Of a DNA stretch of 64,000 nt, positions 3,292-57,425 are shown in pieces (the first letter of the stretch is position 1; each line of letters opens with the position of its first letter). Source of the DNA: a virus; IMG/VR virus record IMGVR_UViG_3300011271_000003, positions 34,805 through 98,804 of that record; one strand, given 5' to 3'. Both the position numbers and the translations under genes were made by a program. Under the pieces are notes generated by a model that was not told the DNA's origin, ran no database searches, and saw only the letters and a program-made list of their open reading frames with translations.

Positions 3292-4170
3292 AGGCTAGGA
3301 GCGCCTCAGTTAGTTCCAACTTCAGGCCTGCTATATCTCCCGGCATAGTGTCTTCCGCCTTGATACCATATACTCGGAGCGCTGCTCTGGCAAGTCGGAG
3401 TTGTGCCAGTCTGATTTCGCCATAACTAAAGGGTGCGCCTGGGGCCTCCGGGTCGAGCTGGTTTGAATGGTATGCGGACCTAGGTCCGTCCACAAGCGTC
3501 GCCCCTGTGTCTCGTCCTTGTTGGAAGTGGCCGGCACGTCTGACTGGAATAACCATACTGCTTCGGTGTCGCATACATTCTCCGTTCAAGGTCCGGCCCG
3601 AGCCCGTAGGGGACTATCCGCCGACGCAACCGCCTACCAGGATTGTGTTCACCTCCTTCCGAGTGGCAAGCTTGACCACTCAAGCCCCTGCACGGCTGGC
3701 GTCCCCGGAGAGTCCTCGCCACTCTCGCCGTGTCGGCGGCAGCCTGTCAATTCAGGTCGTTTCCGTGTCGGGAATTCAGTGGTCAAGCTCTTTCCTTATC
3801 GTTTAGGTACTCGCTGTCTCTTTTACCCACTGCTCTCGTAGGTCCGGCAGAAGGTTATTGCCAGATGCGACAACCATGTTCTTAACGAAGTCTCTGACTA
3901 CGTCAGCGTGAGGTCTGCGACAGCCTGGCTCTGCATGCACATACCAACCAAATTTCTTGGTCTGTGCATAGCCGCCTCTACCCGTGTTGTGCTGGCAGGC
4001 AAGTGTTGGCTTTGCCACCACAGCTTCCATAGTGGAAGAAGCAGCCACTATGGCACCGAGGGCTACAAGCTCATTCTCAGCCTCTTCTGCCGAAGTGTCG
4101 TCGCTTTCCCACTTGTCCTTCAGGTGAATGAACCGCTCGGCTGCAGCGTTGTCTCTGAACGACAGTATGA

Positions 4171-15229: not shown

Positions 15230-15689
15230 GCGGGCTCCAGCTTGGCCCTGATTCGTTCTGCTGTTCTAGCTGCGTCGTCCATCGCGAGTGCGACTCCTAG
15301 TAGGTCTTCCCAGCTCTTGAGAGTGGGATCTGACGCTATATGTTTCTGCTGTGCATCTTTTTGGTCCGCCCAACCTTCGAGCACCGTGTCGAGTATGAAT
15401 GCTAGGACATCGGTCTCGTCGTTGTCGAGCTCAAGGGTCATACTCTGACCTCCGTTGTGTAACACAAAAATCTGCCAAAATATATACGCCATCCACCCTC
15501 AGCGTCACCTCACGACGCCTACACCCGTGGCCTCCCGCGGTCCTACAGAAGCTATTCACCTTCATCCTCATGTCAGAAGGACTGAGCAGGCTCTCTTTTT
15601 CGGCATCCGCTACTGTTAGTGTTCCTTCGACAAGCGGTCGTCGACTACGACGAGAGTTATCTGTGACCTGAAACACAGACAATGACTGT

Positions 15690-16445
15690 TGTAACCGGCC
15701 GGTGAATGGGCCAGCGCTTCTGCAGGCGCTTCCTTGTACTGGTCTGGGTCCGATAGCTCACAGCGCCTTCACGTACACCATCGGACCCAGAAACTCCTAA
15801 GTGCCAGGGTGCCGCAGGGGTAGTGGTCACTAGTAACCAGCGCGCGTTACCCCTGCGACAGAGCGGAATCGAACCGTCCAGCATTACGATCTGCCCAAAT
15901 CTGTGTTGTTGTAAGTTCGGGCTCCGGGAGTCCTGTTCCTGGCCGGCTGACAACCGACCGTTACGGAACAGGACTCCCGTGAGGGTTTAGCCCGACGCGC
16001 TGTGCCCTGCACCTCGAAGAGGTGGACGCTCCCTCGCTATTCCTGGCCCCTTGCCAGTCACGGCTACTCACCAGGACTTTTGCGTCCAGCTCACAGCTCT
16101 AGGCACGTCGGCATCCGACACTTTCGTTCGGACCTCACTGCGAGCTGAACGTGGTGGCGCGCTTACCGTATCGTACCGTGCCATCTGTTAGCTGGCACGG
16201 GCATTTAAGGTAAGCGCGCTGTTTACGACCGGCTCCTCAGGGGCTCCTATACTTGCCGCTCGCGCGGGCCTTGCTGAGGACTTACCTGGTTGACCAGCGC
16301 CCGCCATCCCATTGGATGGCGGGCGTATCCAGTTCGAGGGTGGTCAGTGCCTACCGGTCCGTCTTCCCAGAGGGCGGTTCGGGTTCCCCACTCTCTGGGC
16401 GCTCCTTGTCACCGTACTAATCCGTCATGGGACGAGGAGCCTGTC
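15690..16445 (-). ncRNA. Large (~750 nt) highly structured non-coding RNA candidate; ends approximate
   Basis: No credible ORF; dense long inverted repeats (15, 12, 12, 11 and 9 bp); GNRA tetraloops on the - strand (AC-GAAA-GT, CCGC-GCGA-GCGG); internal T-loop GGTTCGATTCC at ~15865-15875. Confidence 0.7.
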
Positions 16446-16446
16446 T

Positions 16447-16461
16447 CTATTGAGTTGTCAA
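16447..16461 (-). promoter_or_regulatory. boxA-like antitermination motif (actinobacterial rrn leader type)
   Basis: TTGACAACTCAATAG, identical to 42194-42208 and similar to the rrn leader TTGAGAACTCAATAG. Confidence 0.65.
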
Positions 16462-16706
16462 AAGTTATCGGCGGAGCTGCCCCAGCCACCGGCCTAAGGG
16501 TTTCCACGACAGCTCCGCCTTCGGCTCTCCGTCAGCTTTGATCGTGTGCCTGCTCTCAAGGAACTAGCATCGATCTCGAGCTTTTGGCGAACCTAGTCAG
16601 CGGTGGAAGTTTGACCTCCCACCGCCGTCGACCGGTCTCAGCGTGTCGGCGCTGGCCTTGTCGATCCGGCGCTCGGTCAGCGACACCCGACCTGCGTACC
16701 GGAGCG

Positions 16707-16780
16707 TGGACCAGACGGGGTTCGAACCCGCGACTTTCCCGATGCTAGGCACGTCTGCCTAGACCCGCGCATACTGGCCC
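16707..16780 (-). ncRNA. 74-nt tRNA-like RNA lacking a D-stem and anticodon loop
   Basis: Acceptor GGGCCAG/CTGGTCC+A, T-arm GCGGG-TTCGAAC-CCCGT, central hairpin CTAGGCA-GACG-TGCCTAG. Confidence 0.75.
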
Positions 16781-16785
16781 ATCCG

Positions 16786-16885
16786 TGGGTGGGAGGGATT
16801 TGAACCCTCGAGCAGTTTCGCTGGGAGCAGCGACCCCGCGATACTTCCCTAGTATCACCGAACGGCCTCTAGCGGCATACCACCC
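16786..16885 (-). ncRNA. ~100-nt atypical tRNA-like RNA
   Basis: Acceptor GGGTGG/CCACCC, T-arm GAGGG-TTCAAAT-CCCTC, mini D-arm GCC/GGC, 8-bp stem GTGATACT/AGTATCGC with a 5-nt loop, extra arm TCGCTG/CAGCGA. Confidence 0.7.
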
Positions 16886-16934
16886 TACCACCTTACCGAC
16901 GAGAAGGGCATCAGCTCTTACCGTCGGAGGAGGT

Positions 16935-23384: not shown

Positions 23385-23864
23385 TAGCCTGACTCCTTTC
23401 TGTTCTGGATGAACCTGGTGAACATGTCCAACGCCTCGATTGCATCCTCCTCCCCCGAGTATTGCTGTCCCTTCCAGATAGGCGCATCGCTCCACTTCCA
23501 GGGCATCTCTGCGATACCTGCAGATGCTAGCGACTCCACTATCTGGAGTGCTTTAAGCTCATCCACTCTGATGGTCTCCCTTGTCGGTAATGCTAAACGT
23601 TGGTCCGAGCCAGCCGTCGGCGTAGTTCACGTAGAACCTGGAAGTCCTAGCCTCGGCGTCACTCTCTACGTCGCCCACTTCTGGTCCGTTACTAAGCGTG
23701 AGCGCCTGCCATGCAACAAGGCGTAGGTCATTCCGATCGTATCCATACAGTATGTCGAGCACGTCCTGCAATGTAGCTGCCCGAGCATCCTGATACTCCT
23801 CGTTCTCACATCGGTCATCAGGCAATGTTCGACCTCCTCGACGCTAGTTTTATCTGCTACTTAT

Positions 23865-23897
23865 ATTATATCTGGGGTCTAGAGGAAATTGCAAGGG
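23865..23897 (-). promoter_or_regulatory. sigma70-type promoter
   Basis: CCC-TTGCAA-N18-TATAAT with A/T-rich UP region. Confidence 0.8.
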
Positions 23898-25551: not shown

Positions 25552-25613
25552 TTGCCTTCTCCCTTCCGCCCCGCTGCCAGGCTTCTGAGACTGGCAGGGA
25601 GGCGCAGCGGAGA

Positions 25614-28137: not shown

Positions 28138-28471
28138 TGCTACCCCCTTACCAATCGTGTAGGCACAGTCCGCAGAACGGAACGTCCACTATCTGCGTCG
28201 CACGGGGTTGTTCGGCGGTCTTGACGACCTCGATGAACTGCTTCTGGGTTGCGTCGAATGTTAGCAGTGCGTTGAACGCGTCTATGACTTCCTGCATCGT
28301 CTGGTAGACATGCTTGCACTCAAAGCACTGGTGGTACGCACCCGTCAGGAGTTCGTGGGTGTGGTGGATGTAGCAGTAGTTCACGTTCCACGTGCACCCA
28401 CCCGTAGGGCACACCCTGCCGAACTGGTGGACGTGTACGGGTTCTACGTACTCGTAGTTCTCCATATAGTT

Positions 28472-28561
28472 CCTCCTTTCAAAGCCCGGCTCAGGCCTTC
28501 CACGGTGGCGATCGTGTGGGTTGGCCACGCCTCCATACCTGAGCCGGACGTTCAACGGAGG
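28472..28561 (-). promoter_or_regulatory. Long intergenic RNA stem with G.G motif, sequestering the SD of gene 28148-28465
   Basis: CCTCC-G-TTGAA-CGT-CCGGCTCAGG...CCTGAGCCGG-GCT-TTGAA-AGGAGG-AACTAT-ATG. Confidence 0.7.
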
Positions 28562-29243
28562 TTACTCCTCGTAGAGGCCGCCTGCGTAAGGTGCATCTGG
28601 TGGGTCCTTGGGTGTTGGAACGTTCCACTGCTCGTTGAAGGCGTCGGTGAGACCTTTGATGACATCCTGCAGGTCGCCAGGATCGAGGTACTTGAGTACG
28701 TCGACGATTTGCTGCGGCGACATTGCGAGATAGGCTACAGCCTCTGAGCCGTCGTCTCGCACTGTTACGATCTGCGTGACAGCGTCGATCGCTGCTGGTG
28801 TCTGCTCGGTCACCTGTACCTCCAGTTCTGCTCGAGATTCGTGTACAGTTCTCGGTCTGACTTGCTTACTGCGTTGCTGGACACTAGGTCAAGCAGCCTT
28901 AGGTACTGGTCGACTGTTACGTACGGAAGCCTAATGTTGTGTCCACCAGGTTCTGGCCGTTGCGCCTCCTCCCGGCTTGGCGTTGGTGCCGCCACATCAT
29001 AGTCCTTCTCAGCCTGACATAGGCTGCACGTATCATGACGGACGTTGTCGTGCATCTTATGTAGTTCGATAGGAGTAATATGGTCCACTTCCCTTTTTGG
29101 TGTCATGTCAGCTCACAACCAGTGTAGGAATTCGCTCGTGTATCCCAGCGTGACACAGAGGAAGAATAGTCCAGGGCATATCCAGCGGTTACGCGGTGCT
29201 CTGATGCCTCTGAAGGCACCGAAAATACCAAAGAATTCGAACA

Positions 29244-29816
29244 TTAGGTTTTCTCCTTTTCTTGTACGAAGTGAGCAGCTAGTGCCTTGTAGTCCTGGCG
29301 AGGCCTTCCCGCCCTCTGCCGAACAAACTGTACTGTCTCCTCAAGGAGGACGCAGTAAGCTATTTCGAATGTCGCTACTAGGTCCTTAACGCGCTCGTGG
29401 GCGTCGTACCCTAGGTCGAACCACTCGCCCTCTTGTCTTTCACGCTGGAGTATCCGATGAAGAAACCGCTCCATCTTTCTTCCGCCACGAAAGGCGTCTA
29501 CAAGGTGCAAGTCAGGACAGCCTACTCGCAGTTGGCTTATTCTGCTGTTAACGCTACTAGACGTAAAGCCTATCTTGTATAGGCCCTGGCGCTCACTGTG
29601 GGCTAGGTAGACGCACCCGCTAGTAGCTTTGATCCAGAGCTCTGCTCTGCGTTTCTGTTCGAGCTCCGAAATTGGTACTACGAAGTCCTCCACCTCGTCT
29701 GTCGCGGTAACTTCTCCGCGCTTCGGAAGCGGTCCCTTAGTCGCCTCTAGTCTGGCTAGAATGGCGGCTCGGCTTTCTCGAATTTCTCGAATTTCTCGAA
29801 TTTCTTCACCATTCAT
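29244..29816 (-). CDS. GIY-YIG nuclease (T5orf172/MUG113-like)
   Basis: VYLA...LYKIGFT....RI.QL.VGCP...ERFLH....EGEWF; a 9-bp tandem repeat encodes EIR x3. Confidence 0.85.
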   Translation of the reverse strand: MNGEEIREIREIRESRAAILARLEATKGPLPKRGEVTATDEVEDFVVPISELEQKRRAELWIKATSGCVYLAHSERQGLYKIGFTSSSVNSRISQLRVGCPDLHLVDAFRGGRKMERFLHRILQRERQEGEWFDLGYDAHERVKDLVATFEIAYCVLLEETVQFVRQRAGRPRQDYKALAAHFVQEKEKT

Positions 29817-29886
29817 TTCCTTGCCACCCTCCTTTAAACCTGTTAGCATTTAAAATTGTTGATGAAAAATCTTTGAGGTGCTCCCG

Positions 29887-31047
29887 TCAGAGCTCCATCT
29901 CACCTGGTGCCGTAGCTGGTTCGACGTGCTTGCCCATAGCTGCTAGTTCTGCCTTGAATGTCTCCTCCAGTTCTTCTCGCTTGTAGCCGTTAGCTGGTCC
30001 GTTGCCAACCCAGACGCTGTGTGCTTCTAGGCCTAGGTTCCTGATTGCCTGCGCGACGGCGCGGCTCCCCTGGTTGAGCGAACTCCACCAGGCTCCGCCT
30101 CCGGCCTCATGTACCTGCTTTGCGATATCGGTGACGGTGAGGTTACCTTCGGTGGTGCATACGATAGCCGCGATGTAGTTCCGAAGCTGATCCTGCGGTG
30201 ACAGGATCGTCTCAGAACTTCCGTTCTTCAGGCTCAGCTCTCTACATGCGTCCATGACCATCTGCGGCCACGCGCCTCCTGCGACCTCTGCGATTTGGAA
30301 TAGTGGCTTCCAGATCTGCCGCATTCGCATCTTGAGGCCAACCATCGATGGCTTCGCGTCCAGAATGTCTTCCAGAACCTGCTGGACACGTGCCCCGAGA
30401 GTTCTGCCTGTCGAACGAACCCACTCTCTGTGCGTCGTGGAGTCGTAGCAGTCGTCGTCATCCATCGGGTGTGGTGGCTTCTCCATGAAGATGATGATTG
30501 TCCGTGTCCGTGTGTCCTCCAGGTGCGGGTTACCGAGGAACGCTGCTTGCTTCCCTGAGAAGGCAAGTGCGGCGAATGTGCTCTGGAACCCTGTTGCGTT
30601 TAGTGACTGTCCGGTGTCCTCGTAGCCGGTGTTCATGATCTCGAAGATACCCTTAGAGCTGTTGCCTACTCTGGTGACGAGCTTGTGTATCTCGTCCATG
30701 CAGAGCGTCGCTCTCTGTTCTCTGATCACGTTCAGCAGTCCTGGAGCTGTTGCTGTGCTGGCGCCAAAAAGCTTGCCGTTCCGCGACATCAGGCCGTTCA
30801 GCTTGAGTATTGTCGTTTTGCCGCACTCGGAGGTCTCTCCGAGAATGCCCAGCCTTGGCGTCTGGTCGTATGCCAGCTGGTTGTCTGGTGGCTTGATGCA
30901 CCAAGTATGCGCATCCCAAAGCGCCATTGTCGATGCTTTCGCGATACTTAGCGTTGGACTGAACAGGTGAAAAATGTCCATCGCTTCGGTCAGCGCCATG
31001 TCAAGCGGTGTACGCTCAACATGGACTACTGGTGATTCTTCTGACAT
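29887..31047 (-). CDS. P-loop NTPase, DUF3631-like (replication/primase-associated)
   Basis: PRLGILG...CGKTT, TLCMDE, NTGY, TRTIII.M, WKPLFQIAEVAGGAWP. Confidence 0.75.
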   Translation of the reverse strand: MSEESPVVHVERTPLDMALTEAMDIFHLFSPTLSIAKASTMALWDAHTWCIKPPDNQLAYDQTPRLGILGETSECGKTTILKLNGLMSRNGKLFGASTATAPGLLNVIREQRATLCMDEIHKLVTRVGNSSKGIFEIMNTGYEDTGQSLNATGFQSTFAALAFSGKQAAFLGNPHLEDTRTRTIIIFMEKPPHPMDDDDCYDSTTHREWVRSTGRTLGARVQQVLEDILDAKPSMVGLKMRMRQIWKPLFQIAEVAGGAWPQMVMDACRELSLKNGSSETILSPQDQLRNYIAAIVCTTEGNLTVTDIAKQVHEAGGGAWWSSLNQGSRAVAQAIRNLGLEAHSVWVGNGPANGYKREELEETFKAELAAMGKHVEPATAPGEMEL

Positions 31048-31327
31048 GATTTCCCTATCGGTTGTAGTCCTACCCTTTGCTACTTACCCCTTTTCTACAT
31101 TCGCTACTGTTGTGACGAAGACGTCTGCGTGATACTTTTTGCCTTCGACGTTCCCAGCCTGTGTGGTAGCAGAGTCGGTTTTGCCTGCCTCGTAGACACA
31201 ATAAGGATCGCTTACAGCTAGCTCGGCATTGTCGAAGAACTCTTTTGCCTTCTCGAATGCGTCCTCTTGGATCTCTTTGTTAGTGTCACCAAATGCGAGA
31301 ACATGTAGTACTCCGTCCATGTTGTTT

Positions 31328-31384
31328 ACCTCCTTTCAGGACCAGCTCGAGTTGGGGAACTCGAGCTGATCCTCAACCGGAGGT
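31328..31384 (-). promoter_or_regulatory. G.G-motif RNA stem sequestering the SD of gene 31084-31320
   Basis: ACCTCC-GG-TTGAGGATCAGCTCGAGTT/AACTCGAGCTGGTCCTGAA-AGGAGGT. Confidence 0.75.
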
Positions 31385-31447
31385 GCAGTTTGTGGTCAGC
31401 ACCAGGGTTGACCAACCGTCCAGATCAAGGTGTTTGTGTAGCCCCGT

Positions 31448-31465
31448 TCACTCCTCAGCGGCCAT
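31448..31465 (-). CDS. 5-codon minigene MAAEE
   Basis: Perfect SD AAGGAGGTGA followed by CACG-ATG; lies between two G.G stems. Confidence 0.5.
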   Translation of the reverse strand: MAAEE

Positions 31466-31529
31466 CGTGTCACCTCCTTCGTCGTATGACAGAGGACAGT
31501 CCATAAGGGTACCTGCATGGTACAGGTGG

Positions 31530-31602
31530 CCCTGCCCTCAAAGTCCGCCTCGGTTCCCAGCGTCTCTTTTGAGGCCCACCGAGGCGGCCGTTCAGGGAAG
31601 GA
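31530..31602 (-). promoter_or_regulatory. G.G-motif RNA stem with alternative pseudoknot pairing
   Basis: TCCTTCCCTGAA...TTGAGGGCAGGG enclosing CCGCCTCGGT/ACCGAGGCGG. Confidence 0.65.
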
Positions 31603-32973
31603 TCACGCTTTCAGTTGGTTTGGGCCTTCTACGATATGGAACGGCCCGCCGGGATGGTCGGACCAGGCGGACCAGGCGGGAGTGCTGCCAGATCGCAGCA
31701 CTTCGAGTAGGTTGCGAAATCCCTGCTCGTCGTCGAACTCGATCCTGTACACCTGTGTTACAGGATACGTTACAGTCGGTGACTCGATGTCGGCTTCGGT
31801 TGTGATGTCTGTGACGGTGCTAACGTAGGTAATGAGCGCTTCAGGCATCTCAGATCACGTCCTTCTCTGTCATTATGTGTCTCTGCTCCTCGGACCTGTA
31901 AAAGTCGTTGCCGACCTTACTCCAGTCGTGGCCCTCGGCACACTGCCAGTGGCTTCCAGTTCCTGGAGCACCATAATGCCCCTGGAATCGCAATTCCACC
32001 AAGGCGCCTCGATCGTGCAGCGGACATACTCCCTGACGTAGCAGAACCTGCTGAAGCTGGTGTATTGCCTGCTCAACGTCTGACGTGAGCGTCAGCCTCA
32101 CGTCCGGGCACTCAGGCATTGCTCCTCCATGGAGTAAAGGCCTCTGGCGTCGCTGGTACCCAGCATCTACCGTCAAGGCTGCAAGCGTGCCCTTCCTGTA
32201 GTTCATGATCCGGATGCCAGGGCGCTGGACAGAGTTCCCACCAGTTCTTGCTGTCGAACATGACGTTCGGACGCTTAGGCATTTTTCACCTCCGTCTCTG
32301 CGGCGTAGCTTCCAATCACGTCGCTCAGGCTCGTTAGTTCGTCCTTACTGCTCGGGAGCGTGCAGTGGTAGTACGCACGGTCTTGCTCAGCCGCACTCTG
32401 GCAGTACAAGGTCACAAGGTTTGGGTCACGGTCTGCTCTGATCGCCCAGCCCTGCTTCTGCTCAGCCTCCGTCAGGTCTGTTATCGCTTCTGCTGACATG
32501 TTCACCTCCTCTCGAAGATCACCTTCGGGTTGAGAATGTACTCGGTCTCGCTGTCGTAGCGACTCAGCATACCCATTCCGGCCTCGACTCGGTACACTGC
32601 TCCCCAGACTGTTTGCCCCTCAGGTGTCGTGTACTCCACGATCCGTACGACATCGAATCGCATGCCGTCCTCGGGATCAGCCTCGCCGTTCCTGGCGATC
32701 ATCTTGTCGATGATCTCCTTAGTGACGAATGTGCCCACTACACCATCTCCTCTGCGAACTGCTTGATGCTGAGTGCCAGGTTCAGCAGCTCAGTCTTGTC
32801 CGTCGGTAGGTGGGTATGGTAGTACCCTATCGGTACGGTTGCGTCCGTGCGCTGTGTGTAGAGCTTCAGCTCCGGCCCACGTTCGCCTGCCACGTAGCGG
32901 AATGCTACGTGGCGCTTCTGCTCGCTTGGCGTCAGGAAGATCGCATCTTCCCAGCTTTCGATTGACATGTTTA

Positions 32974-33034
32974 ACCTCCTTTCAGGATTGCTCCCGCCTC
33001 TGTGGCGAGCACGGGAGCAATCCTCAACGAAGGT
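32974..33034 (-). promoter_or_regulatory. G.G-motif RNA stem sequestering the SD of gene 32738-32968
   Basis: ACCTTC-G-TTGAGGATTGCTCCCG/CGGGAGCAATCCTGAA-AGGAGGT. Confidence 0.75.
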
Positions 33035-33055
33035 GCCGTCGATCGTGCCGTTCTA

Positions 33056-33088
33056 TCAGGAGCTGTCGCTACGGCCGTTGAGTTTCAT
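33056..33088 (-). CDS. 10-codon minigene MKLNGRSDSS
   Basis: SD GGGAGGTGA followed by CCGA-ATG, double stop TGATAG; lies between two G.G stems. Confidence 0.5.
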   Translation of the reverse strand: MKLNGRSDSS

Positions 33089-33101
33089 TCGGTCACCTCC
33101 C

Positions 33102-33230
33102 TCCTTCCTTCAATCGCCTGCACGAAGGAGATACGCACCATGAGCACGCATTGGCTCATACTATCCACCGGCGTAGCCCGGTGAGGTGCACTTGCGTTCT
33201 TTTCCGTCGTGCAGGACGTTCAAGGTAGGA
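33102..33230 (-). ncRNA. Multibranch structured RNA element closed by a G.G-motif stem
   Basis: TCCTACCTTGAA/TTGAAGGAAGGA, CCTGCACGA/TCGTGCAGG, GCACC/GGTGC, CACCGG/CCGGTG, ATGAGC/GCTCAT. Confidence 0.6.
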
Positions 33231-33738
33231 TCTAGAACAGACTAAGCTTCCGGGCGCGTGCTGTGTACTCGTTCAGGAGCGCTGCGACCTTGGTGAGAGT
33301 CTCATACAGAAACGCCTGATCTTCGAGGTTCTCTGGCGTGTTGTCGACGTAGAACGCACGCCACGGCTCAAGCTCGTACTTCTCGTTCAGGAGCTCATTC
33401 TGCGATTGCTGCATCATCTTGACAATGCTGGTCTCGAGGAGCGTCTTGTACTCCAGCAGTGCAAACCAGATCGTTGCGAAGGTCATGTCTGTAGTAGTAG
33501 GAAGAATTACCTTCCCTGACATGTCGCCGACGGCCTCAGTAATGGCCGTCGGCGACCTCACGATGCCTGTCGTGTCGCTGTTCGTTTGGTATCGCGTCAG
33601 AAGCTCCGTGACAGTCAGTGCGATCGATTCGTTGTCACTCTGACCGTGCTTCGACATAAAGTCGAAGAATGTCTCGACTGCAGTCTTTCGCTCTGCGGCT
33701 GAAAGCCGAGCATGCTCGTCCGTCATCTGTTTCACCTT

Positions 33739-34155
33739 TCAGGCTACGTGGTCCCACCAGTGCGGCTGTCCTGGCTGGTCGGGACCCTCTTCGGTCTCGC
33801 ACCGAGCCTCGAGGCTCGTGTACCTGCTTGAGAAGGTTCCATCGTCCAGCTCGATGTACTCGACTGTTACTTTGTGCTTCGGGTTCGCTGCTACATGTGC
33901 CTCGGCAGCGTTGCAGTACTCGTACGTGTAGTTTCCGTCAGCGTGTAGTTCTGAGAACGTTCCATCATACGCCAACCTCAGGACGTCCAGCGCCACGAAG
34001 ACCGCATCACGTCCCGTGGCTTCGTTGTCGAAGGTGTAGTCGTTCATGTCCGCATAGTAGGCGGCCGCAGTATATACCTTGTCAGGTACTATGTCGGCTG
34101 CCTCGGTACCGTTGACTCCCTCATATGCGGACTTTACATCAGCCGCTGTTACCAT
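33739..34155 (-). CDS. Hypothetical protein, paralogue of 4729-5058
   Basis: YTAAAYYAD and ALDVLRLAYDGTF. Confidence 0.7.
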   Translation of the reverse strand: MVTAADVKSAYEGVNGTEAADIVPDKVYTAAAYYADMNDYTFDNEATGRDAVFVALDVLRLAYDGTFSELHADGNYTYEYCNAAEAHVAANPKHKVTVEYIELDDGTFSSRYTSLEARCETEEGPDQPGQPHWWDHVA

Positions 34156-35343
34156 GTTACCTCCGCCGGTCCTGTCTTCTCCGTCTCTGCGTTGACTAGA
34201 GTCGTTCTGTACTCGCTTCCCGCGAGCCAGCAGCCAAAGTCCTTAATCGTAGGCGTCACTCCTGTGTAGCCTGAGTGACCTTGGAATGTCTGCCAGAAAC
34301 CCAGAATCTCGAAGATCGTAGGCCACTTGCTGCTGTCCACTTCGTCGCCATCATAGGTGACGTCGACTGGCTCCTGCTCACGAAGCTCTTGCAGCCTCGC
34401 CCGGTCCTCTTCAGAGCCTCCGCCACCGATTAGTGCCTGTTCGATACTCATGTTAGGCTCTCGATCGTAAGCTGCCTGTCCGCGACGCAGAATAGGTACA
34501 GGTCGTTTAGGTACTCGTCCGACGGAACCCGACCTGGCTCGTCCGGGTACAAAACTTCTACGTACTGAGCTACGCGGTCGATTGCCTCGACGCTAGGTCT
34601 GCAGCAGCCACACTCAACCGCTGCACGAACTCTCTCCTTGAGCTGCTCGAGGTTCATGTGAAGTCCACCTCTTCCACCTGCTTGATAATCCCCGTACCTG
34701 CTACGTTCCACTCGTACGTGTTGCCGTGTTCATCTACGGCGTAGTAGCCGTATGACACCAGAGCGTCCCGGGCTTCCTCCTCTGTATCGACCTTACTCAG
34801 CTCGTTACCTGAGTCGTCGAAAACCGTGAAGTCAGGCTCGTCATGACGCTCGACGGTTGCCTTGTTCGACTTTACGAGGTCCCATGTCTGGTCGAACACG
34901 GAATCTAGTGCGTCGTCGTAGGCTTCGACTCCTCTTTCAGTTCGTCCCACTCTTCGGGACTCTCATAGTCATCCTCACTCCAGGTAACGAAAGCCTCAAT
35001 CGTTACCTTGTACCTTACCCGGTCTGTCACGTTCCCCAGCCTCCCCTTCCCCTAATGTCGAAGCCTACGTACTCGGTCAGCTTGACGCCGATCAGGAATG
35101 GCCGGACCTCTTTCGGCATCTCGTCCAGGTCCGTGGACTTGTCAGGACCGTCCGAGATTAGCAGTGCTTCCCATGCCAGACGCCGCAGCTGATCTGCATC
35201 AAGCTGGTAGAGCCGCTCCATGCACTCCTGCATGTAGTCCCGTTCTAGATCAGTCTTTCCGGGACCTGCTGCATCAGACCCTGTTTCCCAGGACATTTCT
35301 GCACCTCCGGCTCATAAACACTTAGTCTTTTTCTCTCAATAAT

Positions 35344-35376
35344 ATTATATTATAGGTCACTGGGAAATATCAAGGG
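35344..35376 (-). promoter_or_regulatory. sigma70-type promoter
   Basis: CCC-TTGATA-N18-TATAAT with UP-like tract. Confidence 0.8.
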
Positions 35377-38123: not shown

Positions 38124-38810
38124 GTCAGAAAGGCTCTGGTTCGCGCGTAATTCCCATGCGCTTAGCCTGCCAAGCCTTCATCGTCTTCACGGTGCGGCCG
38201 TTGACACGGATTACGTACGTGGCCATCTCGTCCAGACGCTCGGTGTCCGTGATAGAAACATCAAAGACCACAAGTCGCTCTTCGCGCCGGTACGCGTCTC
38301 CGACCTTACGGCCATCCTGAGACACGTCCGAGCCGTAGCGGGTGTCTTCGTACGCTACGAAGACGCTTTGGCGACTGCCATGATTGTTTCCTATCTGGGA
38401 ACATACAGGTTGTAGGGCCGTCTTGGTGGCGCCTCTGAAAGAGAGGGAGCCCAATATAGTTCTGAGTCTGGAGGGACAGGAAGATCAGGCTGGACAACAT
38501 CCCGCCCTGTGGATTCGTTGCCTCTTAGGGAGCCCCGGTGTAGGTCCGCCCAGAACATTTCGTCGAGGTCGGCCTCGGGGTCGTCTACCACAGGCCGTCG
38601 AGGTGCCCGCCCAGACTGACGAGAGGCTGAATGAAGTGCCCGCCCCACCAGTAGACGATGAACATGACGTGGCCGAACTCCATTACAAACAGAGGGAACA
38701 TGACTTTCACCTTTCTCCGGAATTCAGACTGATTCTGAATCCACGGCAACCTGCCAGGCCTCACTCGTCCCGAAGGAGTCTTGGCTCTTGGCCTGGCAGG
38801 AAGCCCTAGT

Positions 38811-39155: not shown

Positions 39156-39576
39156 GATTTCACCCTTTGTTTCATTGCTAGTTCTGCGAGGTCGACTAGT
39201 AGTTCGGAAAATCGGGTTTCGAGCTCCCGCAGGAGCTTTCGGATCACGTCAGGTCGGCTTCGATGTCCAGAAGCTCCTGTTGCGCCAGCTCTTCGAGGAT
39301 CTCGTCGGAGTCGTCGAGACGGGGTCCGTCGGGCTGACCGGTGTAGCTGGTGTAGACCAGCTCGCTGTAGGCCACGTCAGATCGTCTGCCAGTTCGACAC
39401 GCTGGCGTCCCAGACGTTGTCTTCGCCGTCGACGGCGTAGTACTCGACGTCCGTGTCGTCGTCGTCCCATAGCTCGTAGGGCATGGTCTCACCTTTCGTT
39501 GCCGCCCTGGATAGGCGGACTTGACGGGGGAACGCCCCTCTCGAGGCGTTCCCCATCAGGCCCGTCCAGCTAAGGA

Positions 39577-41249: not shown

Positions 41250-41297
41250 CTCGTCTCCTTCCGAATTTTGTTGTAAATAGATTTATTTGTTATTTAT

Positions 41298-41329
41298 ATT
41301 ATATTATAGGATCTATGGAAAATCTAGTG
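41298..41329 (-). promoter_or_regulatory. sigma70-type promoter
   Basis: CA-CTAGAT-N18-TATAAT in very AT-rich DNA with upstream A-tracts. Confidence 0.65.
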
Positions 41330-42214: not shown

Positions 42215-42241
42215 TGTTGTTTTGTTTTTACTTCTAACTAT

Positions 42242-42271
42242 ATTATAATAAGGATCATGAAAATTTATACG
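42242..42271 (-). promoter_or_regulatory. Leftward promoter at the start of the early arm
   Basis: TATAAT in AT-rich context with a weak -35 (CGTATA) at N18; boxA ~35 nt downstream. Confidence 0.55.
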
Positions 42272-42360
42272 CCCTTCCGGTTAAGTTATATTCGGGCAGG
42301 ATTTCATGTGTTACATTGTCACACGGTTGGTGGGTGTGTAGTCTTACGGTGGGCCTCTAT

Positions 42361-42411
42361 GTATACCAATACAGTGCGTTTCCATTGGGACATCAGGTAA
42401 AATAGATGACA
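42361..42411 (+). promoter_or_regulatory. Late promoter, copy 1
   Basis: 45/51 identical to 57375-57425; GTATACCAAT box, GTGCGT-N18-TAAAAT. Confidence 0.8.
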
Positions 42412-53147: not shown

Positions 53148-55997
53148 GTGCCTATGCCGGTTACCGTCACCGCTTCCCAGGGTGGCAGCACGGCCAACGG
53201 GCTGCTGCTGCGCGTCAAGGTCCTGACCGGGACCGCCGCAACACAGACCGGGAATACGGACAGCAATTCCAGCAGTACCCCGTTCACCCCGGACCTGAGC
53301 CTGATTACCACGGTCACCGGATCGTACGTTTACGGGGCGCTGGCCAACGGGTCACCGGTCACGAACGGAACCGCGTTCACCGCCGCCGCCGGCAACACGG
53401 TCAACGACAGTTACGCGGACAGCACCAACGCCGAGCAGTACGGCACCTGCCGGACTACCGCCAAAACCGGCACCCCCGGCGCGACGACCGTAGGCGCCTC
53501 GCTGCCGCTGATAACCGGCGGCATCGCGTTCGCCGAGATCCTGCCCGGCGCCGGGGGCCTCTCCGAGGACCCGTCATCACCCACTGCGGCGGTCAGCACG
53601 TCCGGCACGTCTGTGTCGAGCTCGAGTTTCACCCCCCCGGACGGCGCCCTGCTCGTCGCGATGGTGTCCTCGGACGGCGGGTCCGGCGTCACCACGATGG
53701 CGCTGTCCGGCGGCGGCCTGACCTGGTCGCCGCTGGCCGAGGCGAACGGCTCCGGGAACGACTATGCAGGCGTATGGATCGCGCAGGTGCCGCCGTCCAA
53801 CCCGTTCGACCCGGTAATCACCGCGACGCAGGGCGGTTCCACCGCAGCGGGCATCGCACTGCGGATCTACGTCCTGACCCAGGCCGCCGCCACGCAGAAC
53901 GGCGGTACCAGCAATAACCAGTTCCTGAACGCGACCAGCTTCACCCAGTCCGTCACCACCACCCAGACGGGCTCGCGGGTCTACGGGGCCAGCGCGGTCT
54001 TCGGCAACAACTCCGCTACCGCCGCCGCAGCCACCACCGTTGCCGACAACATCGCGGATACCGTCAACAACGGCCGGTACGTCACGTTCAAGGCCACGGC
54101 GCTGACCGGGACGCCGGGCGCGACCACGCTGGGTTTCACGGTCGCCACATCGTCGGGGCCGTTCGCGCAGGCGGAGATCCTGTCCGCCGGGACGCTGACC
54201 GAGGATAATTCCGCGCCGCCGCCGGTCTCGGATACGGGCAACACGTTCGTGTCCTGCGCGAACTTCAGCCCGCCCGGCGGGTCGCTGCTCGTCGCGCTGG
54301 TCGCCTCGGACGGGGGCGCCGCCGTCACCACGATGACGGTCAGCGGCGGCGGTCTGACGTGGACTGAGCTGGCCAGGAACAACCCGTCTGCCGGCGACTA
54401 CGCGGGCGTGTGGATCGCGCAGGTCCCGGCTGCCGGCGGGAGTGCGCCGCAGCCAATTTCGCCGTTTATGTTTCCGCCGCTGTCTAAGGCGTTTGGGCCA
54501 TATCCGCCGTTTGAAGTTCCTCAGTCTTACCCGCCACCACCTCTGCAGCAGGCCCTAGTCGTTCTACCGCTGCCATTTAGGCCTTACCATCCGAAGTATA
54601 TGGAGCTGGCGAGGTGGCTACACGGAGACGCAGCAGGGGCTCTTCCTCCTGCTGCACCCCCGCCGGCGCTCACTCGAGCTCGGCTGCGTCCTCCTGCACT
54701 AGTTCAGGTACGTCGCAAGCTTCCTAATCTTCCACCGTCACAATTTAATCCACCTTTGCCGCTCTCCACTCCGAACAAAACACGTCGAGCTCCCTTCTTG
54801 CGTAAGGAACATAGTTTTAGTCCGGTACCGCCCCAGTTTAACCCGCCGCTACCTCCTTCGGCGCTTAGGCAGACCAGACGCATACCGCTCCTTAGGCTAG
54901 GTAAGCCTTCATCCATTACGCCTTCGCTGACCGTAGGCGCGCCCTCACTACCTCTCACTGCGCCAAACAAAACACGCAGAGCGCCCTTCTTGCGCCGAGG
55001 ACGTGCTTTCAGCCCCGTACCGTCACAATTCAATCCGCCGATAGCGCCTTCTGCACCGAACAGGACACGGCGAGCTCCATTCCTGCGTCGCGGAGCGACG
55101 GGACCTGTTGCTCCCGCTCAGGTAACGTTCGTAAATCCTCCTACGACAACGTCGGCACCTAACAGGACTAGGCGAGCTCCCTTCCTTCGAAGAGGGCGAG
55201 CCTCCAGTCCAGTACCTCCCCAGCTGAACCCCCCGCTGCCTACGCCCTTCTCGCGACCTAACCTAAGATCGCCGCTTCAGCTACGTAAGGTAAAGGACCT
55301 CAAGGCAGCAAGCCAGTTGGTCGTGCATCCAGAGCCAGTTATGGGGAGAATGCGTAAGGCGCTTCCTGTTACTCCACGTAGGTCTGTGCGCAGAGTCTCC
55401 GGTCAGCCTGTTCCTTACGCGGAACTGACATTTAGCAAGCGGAGAAGGCTACAGCTTCCAAGGTTCGGCAAGTCCTCACCGATTACTCCATCCGTAGTAG
55501 CGGCTACGCTCCCACCGTTGCCTACTATGTTCTCGCGACCGGTGAAGAAGGCACCTCTCTTGAGGCGAGGCAGGAGCTTTGCTCCAGTACCTCCCCAGGT
55601 CGTAGTTGCTCCGCCTACTCTGCCTACCATGTTCTCGCGGCCTCCTAGGAAGGCACCCTTCCTGCGGAGAGGCAAATCGTTCAGTCCTGTGCCACCACCT
55701 ACTGATACGCCTGCTCTTACGACCTTCAGGCGTCGGTCACCAGGCTTTCTACGTCGCCTTATAAGACGAGTTCTTGGCCCGCTACCGTTTGTTACTCCGC
55801 CAGCAATAGTAGGTGGGTCGGTAACCGCTTTCGACTACCTAACGCAAACTACGGCCGCTATGAACTTCAGCGTATCAGTTGGAGCATACGACAGTCTAGC
55901 GACAGCTACTGTCGTGGCTGTCGACGTGTCTGCACAATCCGTAGTGGCGACGAACACACCGGCGCAAACAGTTCAGGCCACAGATAGGATCCTGTAA
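53148..55997 (+). CDS. 949-aa mosaic virion/fibre-like protein: duplicated beta domain plus Pro/Arg repeat region
   Basis: Two ~210-aa units each starting QGGSTA.G..LR..VLT and ending DYAGVWIAQVP; ~30-aa repeats APN.TRRAPFLRRG..FSPVPPQFNPP. Confidence 0.75.
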   Translation: MPMPVTVTASQGGSTANGLLLRVKVLTGTAATQTGNTDSNSSSTPFTPDLSLITTVTGSYVYGALANGSPVTNGTAFTAAAGNTVNDSYADSTNAEQYGTCRTTAKTGTPGATTVGASLPLITGGIAFAEILPGAGGLSEDPSSPTAAVSTSGTSVSSSSFTPPDGALLVAMVSSDGGSGVTTMALSGGGLTWSPLAEANGSGNDYAGVWIAQVPPSNPFDPVITATQGGSTAAGIALRIYVLTQAAATQNGGTSNNQFLNATSFTQSVTTTQTGSRVYGASAVFGNNSATAAAATTVADNIADTVNNGRYVTFKATALTGTPGATTLGFTVATSSGPFAQAEILSAGTLTEDNSAPPPVSDTGNTFVSCANFSPPGGSLLVALVASDGGAAVTTMTVSGGGLTWTELARNNPSAGDYAGVWIAQVPAAGGSAPQPISPFMFPPLSKAFGPYPPFEVPQSYPPPPLQQALVVLPLPFRPYHPKYMELARWLHGDAAGALPPAAPPPALTRARLRPPALVQVRRKLPNLPPSQFNPPLPLSTPNKTRRAPFLRKEHSFSPVPPQFNPPLPPSALRQTRRIPLLRLGKPSSITPSLTVGAPSLPLTAPNKTRRAPFLRRGRAFSPVPSQFNPPIAPSAPNRTRRAPFLRRGATGPVAPAQVTFVNPPTTTSAPNRTRRAPFLRRGRASSPVPPQLNPPLPTPFSRPNLRSPLQLRKVKDLKAASQLVVHPEPVMGRMRKALPVTPRRSVRRVSGQPVPYAELTFSKRRRLQLPRFGKSSPITPSVVAATLPPLPTMFSRPVKKAPLLRRGRSFAPVPPQVVVAPPTLPTMFSRPPRKAPFLRRGKSFSPVPPPTDTPALTTFRRRSPGFLRRLIRRVLGPLPFVTPPAIVGGSVTAFDYLTQTTAAMNFSVSVGAYDSLATATVVAVDVSAQSVVATNTPAQTVQATDRIL

Positions 55998-57349: not shown

Positions 57350-57374
57350 TGGGTTCTTGACCGTGTGTTCCCAG

Positions 57375-57425
57375 GTATACCAATCCAGTGCTTTTCCTTT
57401 TGGCCATCTGGTAAAATAGATGACA
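57375..57425 (+). promoter_or_regulatory. Late promoter, copy 2 (capsid module)
   Basis: 45/51 identical to 42361-42411. Confidence 0.8.

What the first reader, a model, noticed from the sequence alone, without database searches (positions are those of the whole stretch)
31328..33230. Repeated cassette: stem, perfect SD plus minigene, stem, gene
Seen twice: a G.G stem right after a stop codon, then GGAGGTGAC-N-ATG opening MAAEE (31465-31448) or MKLNGRSDSS (33088-33056), each followed by GAACGG, then a second G.G stem. The peptides are unrelated but the layout is conserved. A similar AAGGAGGTGAACACA-ATC short frame lies near 3630-3660. Inference: cutting both stems would free a short RNA with a very strong SD (ribosome sponge or lambda bar-like minigene), or minigene translation modulates the next stem.
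Basis: partly seen in the sequence, partly recalled or inferred. Interest (0 to 1): 0.7.

Follow-up and report, generated by a model that had tools for sequence, protein, structure and literature searches.

The report
Stop-codon-locked RNA hairpins between phage genes
The two "stem, ribosome-binding site plus tiny gene, stem, gene" cassettes are real, but their core is a previously undescribed RNA hairpin with two fixed mismatches that a whole group of uncultivated phages places directly after stop codons; the tiny genes look incidental.

Summary
Observation confirmed. Two long gaps on the minus strand (33231-32969 and 31602-31321) have the described layout, and 3802-3575 holds a degenerate third.

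The first stem of each cassette belongs to a hairpin family. Its consensus is [stop]-N2-13-UGAACGUCCKG...CMGGRCCUUGA-[purine-rich arm]. I found 42 distinct copies in 23 of 44 related IMG/VR phage records, plus one on a Streptosporangiaceae MAG contig. It is not in Rfam.
- 93% of cells are paired, against 73% in shuffles, and 19 of 21 pairs covary.
- The G.G and C.C/C.U mismatches are kept in 90% or more of copies.
- 37 of 40 copies start 2-13 nt after the stop of a long ORF.
- In about half, the 3' arm carries the next gene's Shine-Dalgarno (SD) sequence.

In cassettes A and B the arm is followed by an orphan strong SD and a 10- or 5-codon frame. A second hairpin, seen only in this genome, then masks the real SD.

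The mini-peptides are unrelated, and the third cassette has no ATG. The mini-ORF stops lie 20 and 62 nt before the next stem, too far for a terminating ribosome to open it. No close relative exists to test conservation.

Best reading: RNA-level punctuation of a polycistronic message, by processing or stabilisation plus SD masking or coupling. The orphan SDs would be vestigial starts or STAB-SD-like stabilisers. The sponge or bar-minigene reading is unsupported.

The scan has noted similar kinds of element on other DNA, but not this family.

The parts
33232..33726 (-). Upstream gene of cassette A (164 aa). Its stop TAG is at 33234-33232.
   Evidence: Own gene call with codon-usage score. A 52-54% identical homologue exists in relative G001 and in one JGI contig.
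33094..33236 (-). Family hairpin, copy A1. Outer stem is 33231-33223 with 33109-33101. Core UGA is 33222-33220, facing UGA 33112-33110. The apical part is multibranched.
   Evidence: Model R1 scores it 51 bits, E 2.8e-12. Fold; coordinates.
33092..33106 (-). Orphan strong SD, AAGGAGGGAGGTGAC. It partly forms the 3' outer arm of copy A1.
33056..33088 (-). Mini-ORF of 10 codons (MKLNGRSDSS), followed by a second stop, TAG.
   Evidence: Codon score is 0.0 and no homologue was found.
32969..33037 (-). Second hairpin of cassette A. Order: anti-SD GCACCUUCG, UUGA, 12-bp stem, UGAA, then the SD AAGGAGGU of gene 32738-32968.
   Evidence: (inner duplex -22.6 kcal). The SD core has an unpaired probability of 0.022, rank 16 of 150 genes.
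31603..31848 (-). Upstream gene of cassette B (81 aa). Its stop TGA is at 31605-31603.
31522..31608 (-). Family hairpin, copy B1. Core UGA is 31594-31592, facing UGA 31540-31538. The 3' arm is GGGCAGGG.
   Evidence: Model R1 scores it 58.3 bits, E 1.8e-14. Fold.
31466..31479 (-). Orphan strong SD, AAGGAGGTGACACG.
   Evidence: It is nearly identical to the SD and spacer of a real gene start in relative locus L115.
31448..31465 (-). Mini-ORF of 5 codons (MAAEE).
31321..31387 (-). Second hairpin of cassette B. Order: anti-SD GCACCUCCGG, UUGA, 15-bp stem with a tetraloop, UGAA, then the SD AAGGAGGU of gene 31084-31320.
   Evidence: The SD core has an unpaired probability of 0.002, rank 9 of 150.
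28463..28568 (-). Family hairpin in its simple form. Stop TAA 28564-28562 is followed directly by CCUCCGU, which pairs with the SD of the next gene (ATG 28465).
   Evidence: Model R1 scores it 70.7 bits. Fold. SD unpaired probability is 0.002. An orthologous gene plus hairpin occurs in G001 and G004.
3575..3802 (-). Degenerate third cassette. It holds a family-like hairpin at 3664-3792, an orphan SD GGAAGGAGGTGAACACAATC at 3660-3641 without ATG, and a decayed family 3' arm CGGGCCGGACCTTGAACGGAG before ATG 3574.
   Evidence: Model R1 scores it 18.8 bits, E 0.012..

Best explanation
Each cassette is a compound junction between two genes of the phage's leftward polycistronic mRNA, and it works at the RNA level.

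Shown:
- The first stem is a copy of a hairpin family conserved across this phage group.
- Each copy has an outer stem of 5-10 pairs that begins at or just after the upstream stop codon.
- Next comes a fixed core: U-A, G.G, A-U, A-U, C.C, then GUCCKG/CMGGRC.
- Above the core sit a covarying upper stem and a free apical part.
- The 3' outer arm is purine-rich. In simple junctions such as 28.5 kb it is the next gene's SD, which it masks.

Inferred:
- The helix of about 23 positions with central mismatches is a double-strand-specific processing and stability signal, of the host RNase III type as in phage T7. It would separate the messages and leave a protective 3' stem.
- Processing would also free the SD. 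Independently, a ribosome terminating at the stop codon covers the 5' outer arm and opens the SD (the RNA-unfolding form of translational coupling).
- In cassettes A, B and the decayed C, the gene that once followed the hairpin has been lost or shortened. This leaves an orphan strong SD, with or without a few codons. That SD may still load 30S subunits and protect the downstream message, as STAB-SD does.
- The second hairpin masks the real SD of the next gene.
- The mini-peptides themselves have no function.

My odds:
- The family is a genuine selected RNA structure: 0.9.
- The mini-ORF peptides are incidental: 0.85.
- Processing or stability is the hairpin's main role: about 0.4.
- Ribosome-gated coupling is the main role: about 0.3.
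The last two are not mutually exclusive.
For: Structure and conservation:
- 42 distinct copies show 93.1% standard pairs against 73.2% in shuffles. 19 of 21 pairs change on both sides, and 0 of 500 shuffles reach the observed values. Slid registers give 34-53% (seed alignment).
- G.G is kept in 38-40 of 42 copies and C.C/C.U in 39 of 42. Neither is ever repaired to a standard pair.
- In G001 the A-U pair between the two mismatches is replaced by C-G while both mismatches stay.
- The pair at alignment columns 22-190 is U.G in 28 of 42 copies. Sense-strand scores are about twice the antisense scores. This points to RNA of the coding sense.

Distribution:
- The family is present in 23 of 44 related records. 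It is absent from the remoter relatives sampled for their portal (G017-G033, portal identity 50% or less).

Position:
- 37 of 40 copies have an ORF of at least 40 codons whose stop ends 2-13 nt before the core (modes 7 and 5; one further copy at 22 nt). The distance to the next start is 10-18 nt in about 14 of 32 copies and 25-400 nt in the rest.
- Three copies are followed by a TATAATATAAT-type promoter-like sequence, which places them at the end of a transcription unit.
- Flanking genes are mostly unrelated between phages.

SD masking and orphan SDs:
- The SDs after the three window copies rank 8, 9 and 16 of 150 for masking.
- The only three orphan AAGGAGG sites in sense gaps of the genome all follow such hairpins.
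- The gaps carry no coding signal. The 40-aa frame in B scores -0.105 per codon, below every accepted small gene.

Published background:
- An ideal RNase III substrate is a 22-bp helix. Mismatches at the target site give single-strand cuts and stable 3' ends (PMC3867540).
- The RNA-unfolding model of translational coupling (PMC12548453).
- STAB-SD as a 30S-binding 5' stabiliser (PMC4113751).
Against: - There are no expression, end-mapping or ribosome data.
- The host is unknown. One copy on a Streptosporangiaceae MAG contig is the only hint.
- The phage encodes no RNase III or dsRBD, so a host enzyme must be assumed.
- RNase III does not explain why the hairpin is locked to the stop codon.
- Coupling does not explain the copies with no nearby start, nor the fixed core sequence.
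- If the orphan SDs were mere vestiges they should decay, yet they are among the strongest SDs in the genome.
- Copies were partly collected with a pattern that fixes the core. The core's invariance in those copies is therefore partly by selection. The covariation cited lies outside the fixed letters.
- Gene calls come from my own simple caller.
Confidence: 0.5

Rival explanations
1. Pure translational-coupling gate. The hairpin exists only so that a ribosome terminating on the upstream gene melts the outer stem and hands the freed SD to the next cistron. No nuclease or other factor is involved.
For: The stop-to-core distance of 2-13 nt in 36 of 37 measurable copies fits the stretch of mRNA a ribosome covers downstream of its A site. 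In about 14 of 32 copies the SD lies in the 3' arm and the start codon follows 10-18 nt after the core. The SDs are strongly masked. The RNA-unfolding model is established (PMC12548453).
Against: About half of the copies have no start within 25 nt, and three are followed by a promoter instead. A generic stem would suffice for coupling, yet the core sequence and both mismatches are fixed across phages whose portals are only 55-67% identical. In cassettes A and B the SD that would be opened leads into 10 or 5 codons only.
Confidence: 0.2
2. The conserved core with its G.G and C.C mismatches is the binding site of a sequence-specific phage or host protein, such as a translational repressor or activator or an antiterminator. 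This would be the same kind of element as the SAS/ESAS repeats of Cluster K and EF actinophages.
For: The core sequence is invariant while the stems covary, and the mismatches are never repaired. The family is clade-restricted. It has the same general layout as ESAS: conserved inverted repeats with a variable spacer just upstream of RBS-type sequences, tied to unrelated genes (PMC3203893; PMC7302621).
Against: No candidate protein was identified. The spacer between the arms ranges from 10 to about 100 nt, and U.G pairs point to RNA rather than a DNA operator. Many copies are far from any start codon.
Confidence: 0.12
3. The hairpins are transcription terminators or attenuators without a U-tract, as reported for some actinobacteria and actinophages. 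Cassettes A and B would then be a terminator followed by an untranslated leader.
For: The hairpins sit immediately after stop codons. Three copies lie directly upstream of promoter-like TATAATATAAT sequences. The stems are strong.
Against: The 3' flank is purine-rich with no U run. The next gene's SD often lies inside the stem, so efficient termination would silence it. No promoter-like sequence follows the three window copies, although about 10 kb of genes lie downstream before the next recognisable promoter. Mismatches in the lower stem weaken a terminator.
Confidence: 0.1
4. Either the excised fragment with its strong SD is a ribosome sponge or a lambda bar-like toxic minigene, or translation of the minigene remodels the next stem.
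For: The SDs are perfect 9-10-nt matches to the 16S tail, spaced 4-6 nt from ATG. Three orphan SDs all lie in the same context. GGAGGUG of the orphan SD is complementary to the CACCUCC/CACCUUC anti-SD of the second stem, so an alternative pairing is possible on paper.
Against: The peptides are unrelated, and the third cassette has no ATG. The mini-ORF stops lie 20 and 62 nt before the next stem. The minimum-energy folds pair the second anti-SD locally, not with the orphan SD. Family copies in other phages are followed by real genes, promoters or another hairpin, and only occasionally by short frames (19 and 31 aa). No relatives are available for a conservation test.
Confidence: 0.06

Closest known systems
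Intercistronic RNase III processing signals of coliphage T7/T3 early mRNA (R0.3, R0.5, R1.1 and others)
   Same: Both are irregular hairpins of about two helical turns between cistrons of a phage polycistronic mRNA, right after stop codons. Sequence is conserved around a central non-Watson-Crick region. Cleavage there would leave a protective 3' stem and can free the next ribosome-binding site (PMC3867540 for the substrate rules; the T7 details are from my own knowledge).
   Different: There is no sequence likeness. The irregularity here is two 1x1 mismatches (G.G and C.C) two pairs apart, not an asymmetric internal loop. Cleavage is untested and the host is unknown. The strict lock to the stop codon and the SD-like 3' arm are not T7 features.
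SAS/ESAS repeats of Cluster K mycobacteriophages and Cluster EF Microbacterium phages
   Same: Both are clade-specific, well-conserved repeats in short gaps among non-structural genes. They consist of an RBS-type sequence preceded by imperfect inverted repeats with a variable spacer, are tied to unrelated gene families, and have unknown function (PMC3203893, PMC7302621).
   Different: The SAS 13-mer GGGATAGGAGCCC is absent here. The spacer is 10 to about 100 nt rather than 4-13 bp. The anchor is the upstream stop codon rather than the downstream start. Fixed mismatches and RNA-type covariation are shown here and were not described for ESAS.
STAB-SD of Bacillus thuringiensis cry3A mRNA, and the polypurine 5' stabiliser of Bacillus phage SP82 early RNA (the latter from memory)
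   Same: Both are SD-like sequences perfectly complementary to the 16S 3' end that sit in an untranslated leader and do not start the gene. STAB-SD binds 30S subunits and blocks 5'-to-3' decay (PMC4113751).
   Different: Here, two of the three orphan SDs are followed by an ATG and a few codons. Their position relative to a transcript 5' end is unknown, and stabilisation is untested.
RNA-unfolding translational coupling (phage f1 genes VII/IX, MS2 coat-lysis, E. coli rpmI-rplT)
   Same: In both, the downstream RBS is locked in a stem whose other strand lies where the upstream ribosome terminates (PMC12548453).
   Different: The known cases are individual, non-homologous structures. Here it is a repeated, sequence-conserved module, and half of its copies have no adjacent start.
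Lambda bar minigenes
   Same: Both are a very short ORF behind an SD in a phage non-coding stretch.
   Different: Bar, as I recall it, is a two-codon ORF whose toxicity comes from peptidyl-tRNA drop-off. These frames have 5 and 10 codons, share no codons, and one cassette lacks a start codon.

Membership tests
Any Rfam family (release 15) | A covariance-model match at the curated gathering score | tested here: not met
   There were 0 matches over the whole window at gathering score. With permissive filters on 28300-33400, only two chance-level hits appeared (E 2.5 and 4.4).
Stop-locked UGAACGUCC hairpin family (defined here, model R1) | Core 5'-UGAACGUCCKG / CMGGRCCUUGA-3' with G.G and C.C(U) mismatches, between a covarying outer stem and a covarying inner stem | tested here: met
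   Window copies at 28463-28568 (70.7 bits), 31522-31608 (58.3) and 33094-33236 (51.0). Copy 3664-3792 is marginal (18.8 bits, E 0.012). The second stems of cassettes A and B are not matched at E <= 1, so they are not members.
Stop-locked UGAACGUCC hairpin family (defined here, model R1) | The stop codon of a long upstream ORF ends within about 13 nt of the core | tested here: met
   The gaps are 9 nt (A), 8 nt (B) and 7 nt (28.5 kb). Across the clade, 36 of 40 copies fall within 2-13 nt and one lies at 22 nt.
T7-type RNase III processing signal | An irregular double helix of about 20-22 bp between cistrons | tested here: met
   Seven outer pairs plus a 9-position core plus at least 7 further pairs give about 23 positions. 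The mismatches sit at positions 9 and 12.
T7-type RNase III processing signal | Site-specific cleavage by host RNase III | not testable with these tools
   This needs an enzyme assay or end mapping. No phage RNase III or dsRBD was found.
SAS/ESAS (Cluster K actinophages) | The 13-bp motif GGGATAGGAGCCC at the RBS position of several genes | tested here: not met
   Two matches with 2 mismatches were found, neither at a start site, against 1.6 expected by chance.
Intrinsic (Rho-independent) terminator | A G+C-rich stem followed by a run of U | tested here: not met
   The terminator scan lists none at these stems. The 15 nt after each stem hold no T run.
Lambda bar-type minigene | SD plus AUG plus one sense codon plus stop (a two-codon ORF) | tested here: not met
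   The ORFs have 10 and 5 sense codons. The definition of bar is from my own knowledge.
Leader-peptide translational attenuator (ermC/cat type) | A leader ORF whose coding sequence overlaps a stem alternative to the SD-masking stem, with a conserved stalling peptide | tested here: not met
   The mini-ORFs end 20 and 62 nt before the masking stem and do not overlap its arms. The peptides are unrelated, and cassette C has no ATG.
STAB-SD-type 5' stabiliser | An SD-like sequence complementary to the 16S 3' end, in a leader, that does not start the downstream gene | tested here: met
   AAGGAGGGAGGTGAC at 33106-33092, AAGGAGGTGA at 31479-31470 and GGAAGGAGGTGA at 3660-3649 are the only such orphans in sense gaps of the genome.
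STAB-SD-type 5' stabiliser | It lies near the 5' end of the stable transcript and prolongs its half-life through 30S binding | not testable with these tools
   This needs transcript mapping and decay measurements.

The most novel reading that the evidence does not exclude
The stop-locked hairpin is a new class of ribosome-gated RNA switch. The fixed G.G/C.C core would be read by a specific factor or nuclease only when no ribosome is terminating on the upstream gene. Translation status of one cistron would then decide the cutting, stability and SD exposure of the next. In cassettes A and B the orphan SD, which is complementary to the second stem's anti-SD, would act as a 30S-sensing decoy that sets whether the real SD is open.
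Probability: 0.12. Interest if true: 0.75.

Novelty: new variant of a known kind. Interest (0 to 1): 0.5.

Why it matters
Intercistronic RNA signals are known in detail for very few phages, mainly T7, T4 and lambda. The repeats seen in actinophage genomes (SAS/ESAS and similar) remain unexplained. Here a repeat of that general kind is shown to be an RNA helix with strong covariation. It carries two invariant non-canonical pairs and a strict position rule relative to the stop codon, across at least 23 uncultivated phage genomes. That gives a small, well-defined motif (about 23 positions plus a free apex) that can be tested directly in reporters and nuclease assays. It may show how these phages divide and meter long early transcripts. 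For the original finding, the result is sobering: the mini-ORFs are probably by-products of junctions where a small gene was lost.

Tried and rejected
Searches that found nothing useful:
- Near-identical phage DNA in GenBank phages: none.
- tRNA, tmRNA and Rfam: none.
- Close relatives through the flanking proteins: none in IMG/VR. Among 5.8 billion proteins only the proteins themselves were found, plus one 54% hit. The exact gaps therefore cannot be compared.
- The second-stem pattern TTGAGGAY..RTCCTGAAAGGAGG gave 0 hits in viral contigs. It gave 16 in metagenome contigs, all with weak stems and no matching context, so I treat them as chance.
- The core pattern in 185,579 prokaryote genomes gave 63 hits. 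Only one (L152, 48.8 bits) scores like a true copy; the rest score 26 bits or less. This removed a brief suspicion that the motif is widespread in cells.
- blastn and tblastx of the three gaps against all fetched loci matched only the conserved arms and SD strings.
- An earlier-findings look-up by sequence found no look-alike.

Readings considered and dropped:
- The 40-aa ORF 31518-31396 as a real gene: rejected on codon score.
- Whole-gap duplication of A and B: rejected, because the middle segments are not significantly alike.
- Kink-turn or loop-E reading of UGA/UGA: rejected, because the outer and inner helices are in the same register with no bulge.
- The core UGA as a second in-frame stop: rejected, because the gap to the real stop is rarely a multiple of three.
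- Read-through signal: the frame after the stop is open for 68 codons in B, but closes after 3 codons in A.
- Promoter inside gaps A and B: none of the phage's TATAATATAAT type.
Full report
CONTEXT
The window is bases 34805-98804 of a 98.8-kb IMG/VR virus record with direct terminal repeats. Genes from 1 to about 42100 run on the minus strand. Terminase, portal and other late genes run on the plus strand from about 42450. The nearest GenBank phages are remote: Arthrobacter and Gordonia phage portals are about 26% identical. There are no tRNA or Rfam matches. I made gene calls with a simple codon-usage and SD scorer of my own.

THE OBSERVATION
On the minus strand two gaps interrupt an otherwise tight array of small genes. 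Gap A is 33231-32969 (263 nt) and gap B is 31602-31321 (282 nt). Both gaps fold much better than shuffles (z -6.3 and -5.1). A strict scan for hairpins in which UGA faces UGA finds five on the minus strand, all between 28.4 and 33.3 kb, against 0.6 per shuffle. What A and B share, however, is the first stem, the SD string and the second stem. Their middle parts are not significantly alike (z 1.06).

WHAT THE FIRST STEM IS
The same scan run on five related contigs (portal 64-67% identical) returned hairpins with almost the same letters. The layout is:
- a stop codon;
- a short pyrimidine-rich arm;
- UGAACGUCC(G/U)G;
- a variable apex;
- C(A/C)GG(A/G)CCUUGA;
- a purine-rich arm.

A pattern scan of IMG/VR found 21 further loci. 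From 28 copies I built covariance model R1. The model finds three copies in the window: 28463-28568 at 70.7 bits, 31522-31608 at 58.3 bits and 33094-33236 at 51.0 bits. It also finds one marginal copy, 3664-3792, at 18.8 bits.

Across 44 related records, 23 carry the family, with one to four sense-strand copies each. It is absent from the remoter relatives sampled for their portal (identity 50% or less).

Of 63 pattern hits in 185,579 prokaryote genomes, only one behaves like a true copy. It lies on a 64-kb contig binned with a Streptosporangiaceae MAG. That is the only hint about the host.

PROOF OF STRUCTURE
On 42 distinct copies:
- 93.1% of cells form standard pairs, against 73.2% after shuffling partners and 34-53% in slid registers.
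- 19 of 21 pairs change on both sides.
- No shuffle out of 500 reaches any of the observed measures.

The covariation lies in the outer stem and in the upper part of the inner stem. The collecting pattern did not fix those parts.

The core reads U-A, G.G, A-U, A-U, C.C, G-C, U.G, C-G, C-G. G.G is kept in 38-40 of 42 copies and C.C or C.U in 39 of 42. A single substitution would repair either mismatch, yet this is never seen. In the G001 copy that is syntenic with window copy 28463-28568, the A-U pair between the mismatches has become C-G while both mismatches remain. U.G at one pair in 28 of 42 copies, and sense scores about twice the antisense scores, point to RNA of the coding sense.

POSITION RULE
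In 37 of 40 distinct copies an ORF of at least 40 codons ends within 22 nt of the core: 2-13 nt in 36 of them (modes 7 and 5) and 22 nt in one. The outer stem therefore begins at the stop codon or includes it.

The downstream side is free:
- a start codon 10-18 nt after the core in about 14 of 32 copies, with the SD inside the 3' arm;
- otherwise 25-400 nt of spacer;
- in three cases a promoter-like TATAATATAAT sequence follows;
- in some cases a second hairpin follows.

Flanking genes are mostly unrelated between phages. TGA is under-used as the stop before the hairpin: 7 of 37, against 44% of long ORFs in the clade (Fisher p 0.003, not corrected for shared ancestry).

THE REST OF THE CASSETTES
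After copy A1 the 3' arm runs into AAGGAGGGAGGTGAC, an ATG and ten codons. After copy B1, 46 nt separate the arm from AAGGAGGTGAC, an ATG and five codons. After the marginal copy at 3.7 kb comes GGAAGGAGGTGAACACAATC, with ATC where an ATG would be, followed by a decayed family 3' arm before the next gene. These are the only three orphan AAGGAGG sites in sense-strand gaps of the whole genome.

GGAGGTGA-N-ATG is the normal start design of this phage (starts at 32499, 32282 and 25829). B's orphan SD and spacer nearly equal a real gene start in relative locus L115. The gaps have no coding signal, and the 40-aa frame in B scores below every accepted small gene.

The second stems share their bases but have unrelated apical stems. 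The 5' base is GCACCUYCG(G)UUGAGGAU and the 3' base is UCCUGAAAGGAGGU. R1 does not match them, and I found them nowhere else. They pair an anti-SD with the real SD. The SD cores of genes 31320 and 32968, and of 28465, have unpaired probabilities of 0.002-0.022 against a genome median of 0.38.

HOW IT MOST LIKELY WORKS
Shown: a selected RNA helix of about 23 positions, with two fixed central mismatches, anchored to stop codons, whose 3' arm is SD-like and often is the next SD.

Inferred:
(i) The helix fits the 22-bp substrate of RNase III, in which mismatches at the target give single-strand cuts and stable 3' ends (PMC3867540). This matches the intercistronic signals of T7 as I recall them.
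(ii) A ribosome stopped at the stop codon covers the 5' outer arm and so exposes the SD. This is the RNA-unfolding form of translational coupling (PMC12548453).
(iii) In A, B and C the gene behind the hairpin has been lost or cut down. The orphan SD may still bind 30S subunits and protect the downstream RNA, as STAB-SD does (PMC4113751).

I put processing or stability at about 0.4 and coupling at about 0.3 as the main role. They can coexist.

AGAINST THE MINIGENE IDEAS
- The peptides are unrelated.
- One cassette lacks a start codon.
- The mini-ORF stops are 20 and 62 nt from the next stem, beyond a ribosome's reach.
- Minimum-energy folds pair the second anti-SD locally.
- Family copies elsewhere are followed by genes, promoters or hairpins, and only occasionally by short frames of 19 and 31 aa.

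COMPARISON WITH WHAT IS KNOWN
The nearest kinds are T7 RNase III signals and the unexplained SAS/ESAS repeats of Cluster K and EF actinophages (PMC3203893, PMC7302621).
- The SAS motif itself is absent.
- There is no U-tract terminator.
- There is no Rfam family.

I file it as a new variant of a known kind: clade-specific intercistronic RNA hairpins in phage mRNAs.

Earlier notes of this scan describe similar kinds on other genomes, namely SD-masking spacers, orphan strong SDs and stop-anchored palindromes. None describes this family.

LIMITS
- There are no expression data and the host is unknown.
- Model E-values are rough.
- Copies were partly collected by pattern.
- Orthologous copies are not independent.

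Noticed in passing
window 35339-35373 (-), 23845-23871, 41278-41310, 42222-42248: There is a repeated AT-rich promoter-like motif, TTGAYA-N17/18-TATAATATAAT. The same -10 string follows family hairpins in relatives G001, G003 and G004. These are probably the phage's early promoters for host RNA polymerase.
   Followed up: partly
window 42346-42411 and 57360-57425 (+): A 66-nt direct repeat (80% identical) ends in GGTAAAATAGATGACA, at the head of the rightward gene block and again inside it. It may be a late promoter or regulatory box.
   Followed up: no
window 15442-16934 (-): About 1.5 kb has no credible ORF by my gene caller, in the middle of a tight gene array. Other first-reader notes call it a large structured RNA. 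Rfam gives no match at gathering score.
   Followed up: no
window 25552-25613, 38750-38810, 39485-39576 (-): Other short gaps hold strong hairpins that bury the next gene's SD but lack the UGAACGUCC core. About 10% of genes in this phage have an SD with an unpaired probability below 0.03.
   Followed up: partly
clade-wide (37 family copies): The stop codon before the hairpin is TAG 17, TAA 13 and TGA 7, whereas long ORFs of the clade use TGA 44% of the time (Fisher p 0.003, not corrected for shared ancestry). TGA seems to be avoided next to the UGA/UGA core.
   Followed up: partly
L202 (G037:C1) about 34142-34312; L105 5648-5800: Family hairpins occur in tandem. In G037 the 3' arm CCUUGA of one copy runs straight on as the 5' arm UGAACGUCC of the next. 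In L105 a second, slightly diverged copy follows 6 nt after the first.
   Followed up: partly
L115 3975-4092: A hairpin of the second-stem type has the 5' UGA of the UGA/UGA pair as the stop codon of the upstream gene, and its anti-SD CACCUCC forms the gene's last codons.
   Followed up: no
window 53606-55249 (+): There are internal direct repeats of 104-187 nt (62-74% identical) inside the 947-aa ORF 53154-55997, which has no Pfam match. It is probably a repetitive tail or fibre protein.
   Followed up: no
window 31602-31396 (-): The frame of the 81-aa gene stays open for 68 codons past its TGA stop, through hairpin copy B1. The equivalent frame in gap A closes after 3 codons, so I treat this as coincidence.
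   Followed up: partly
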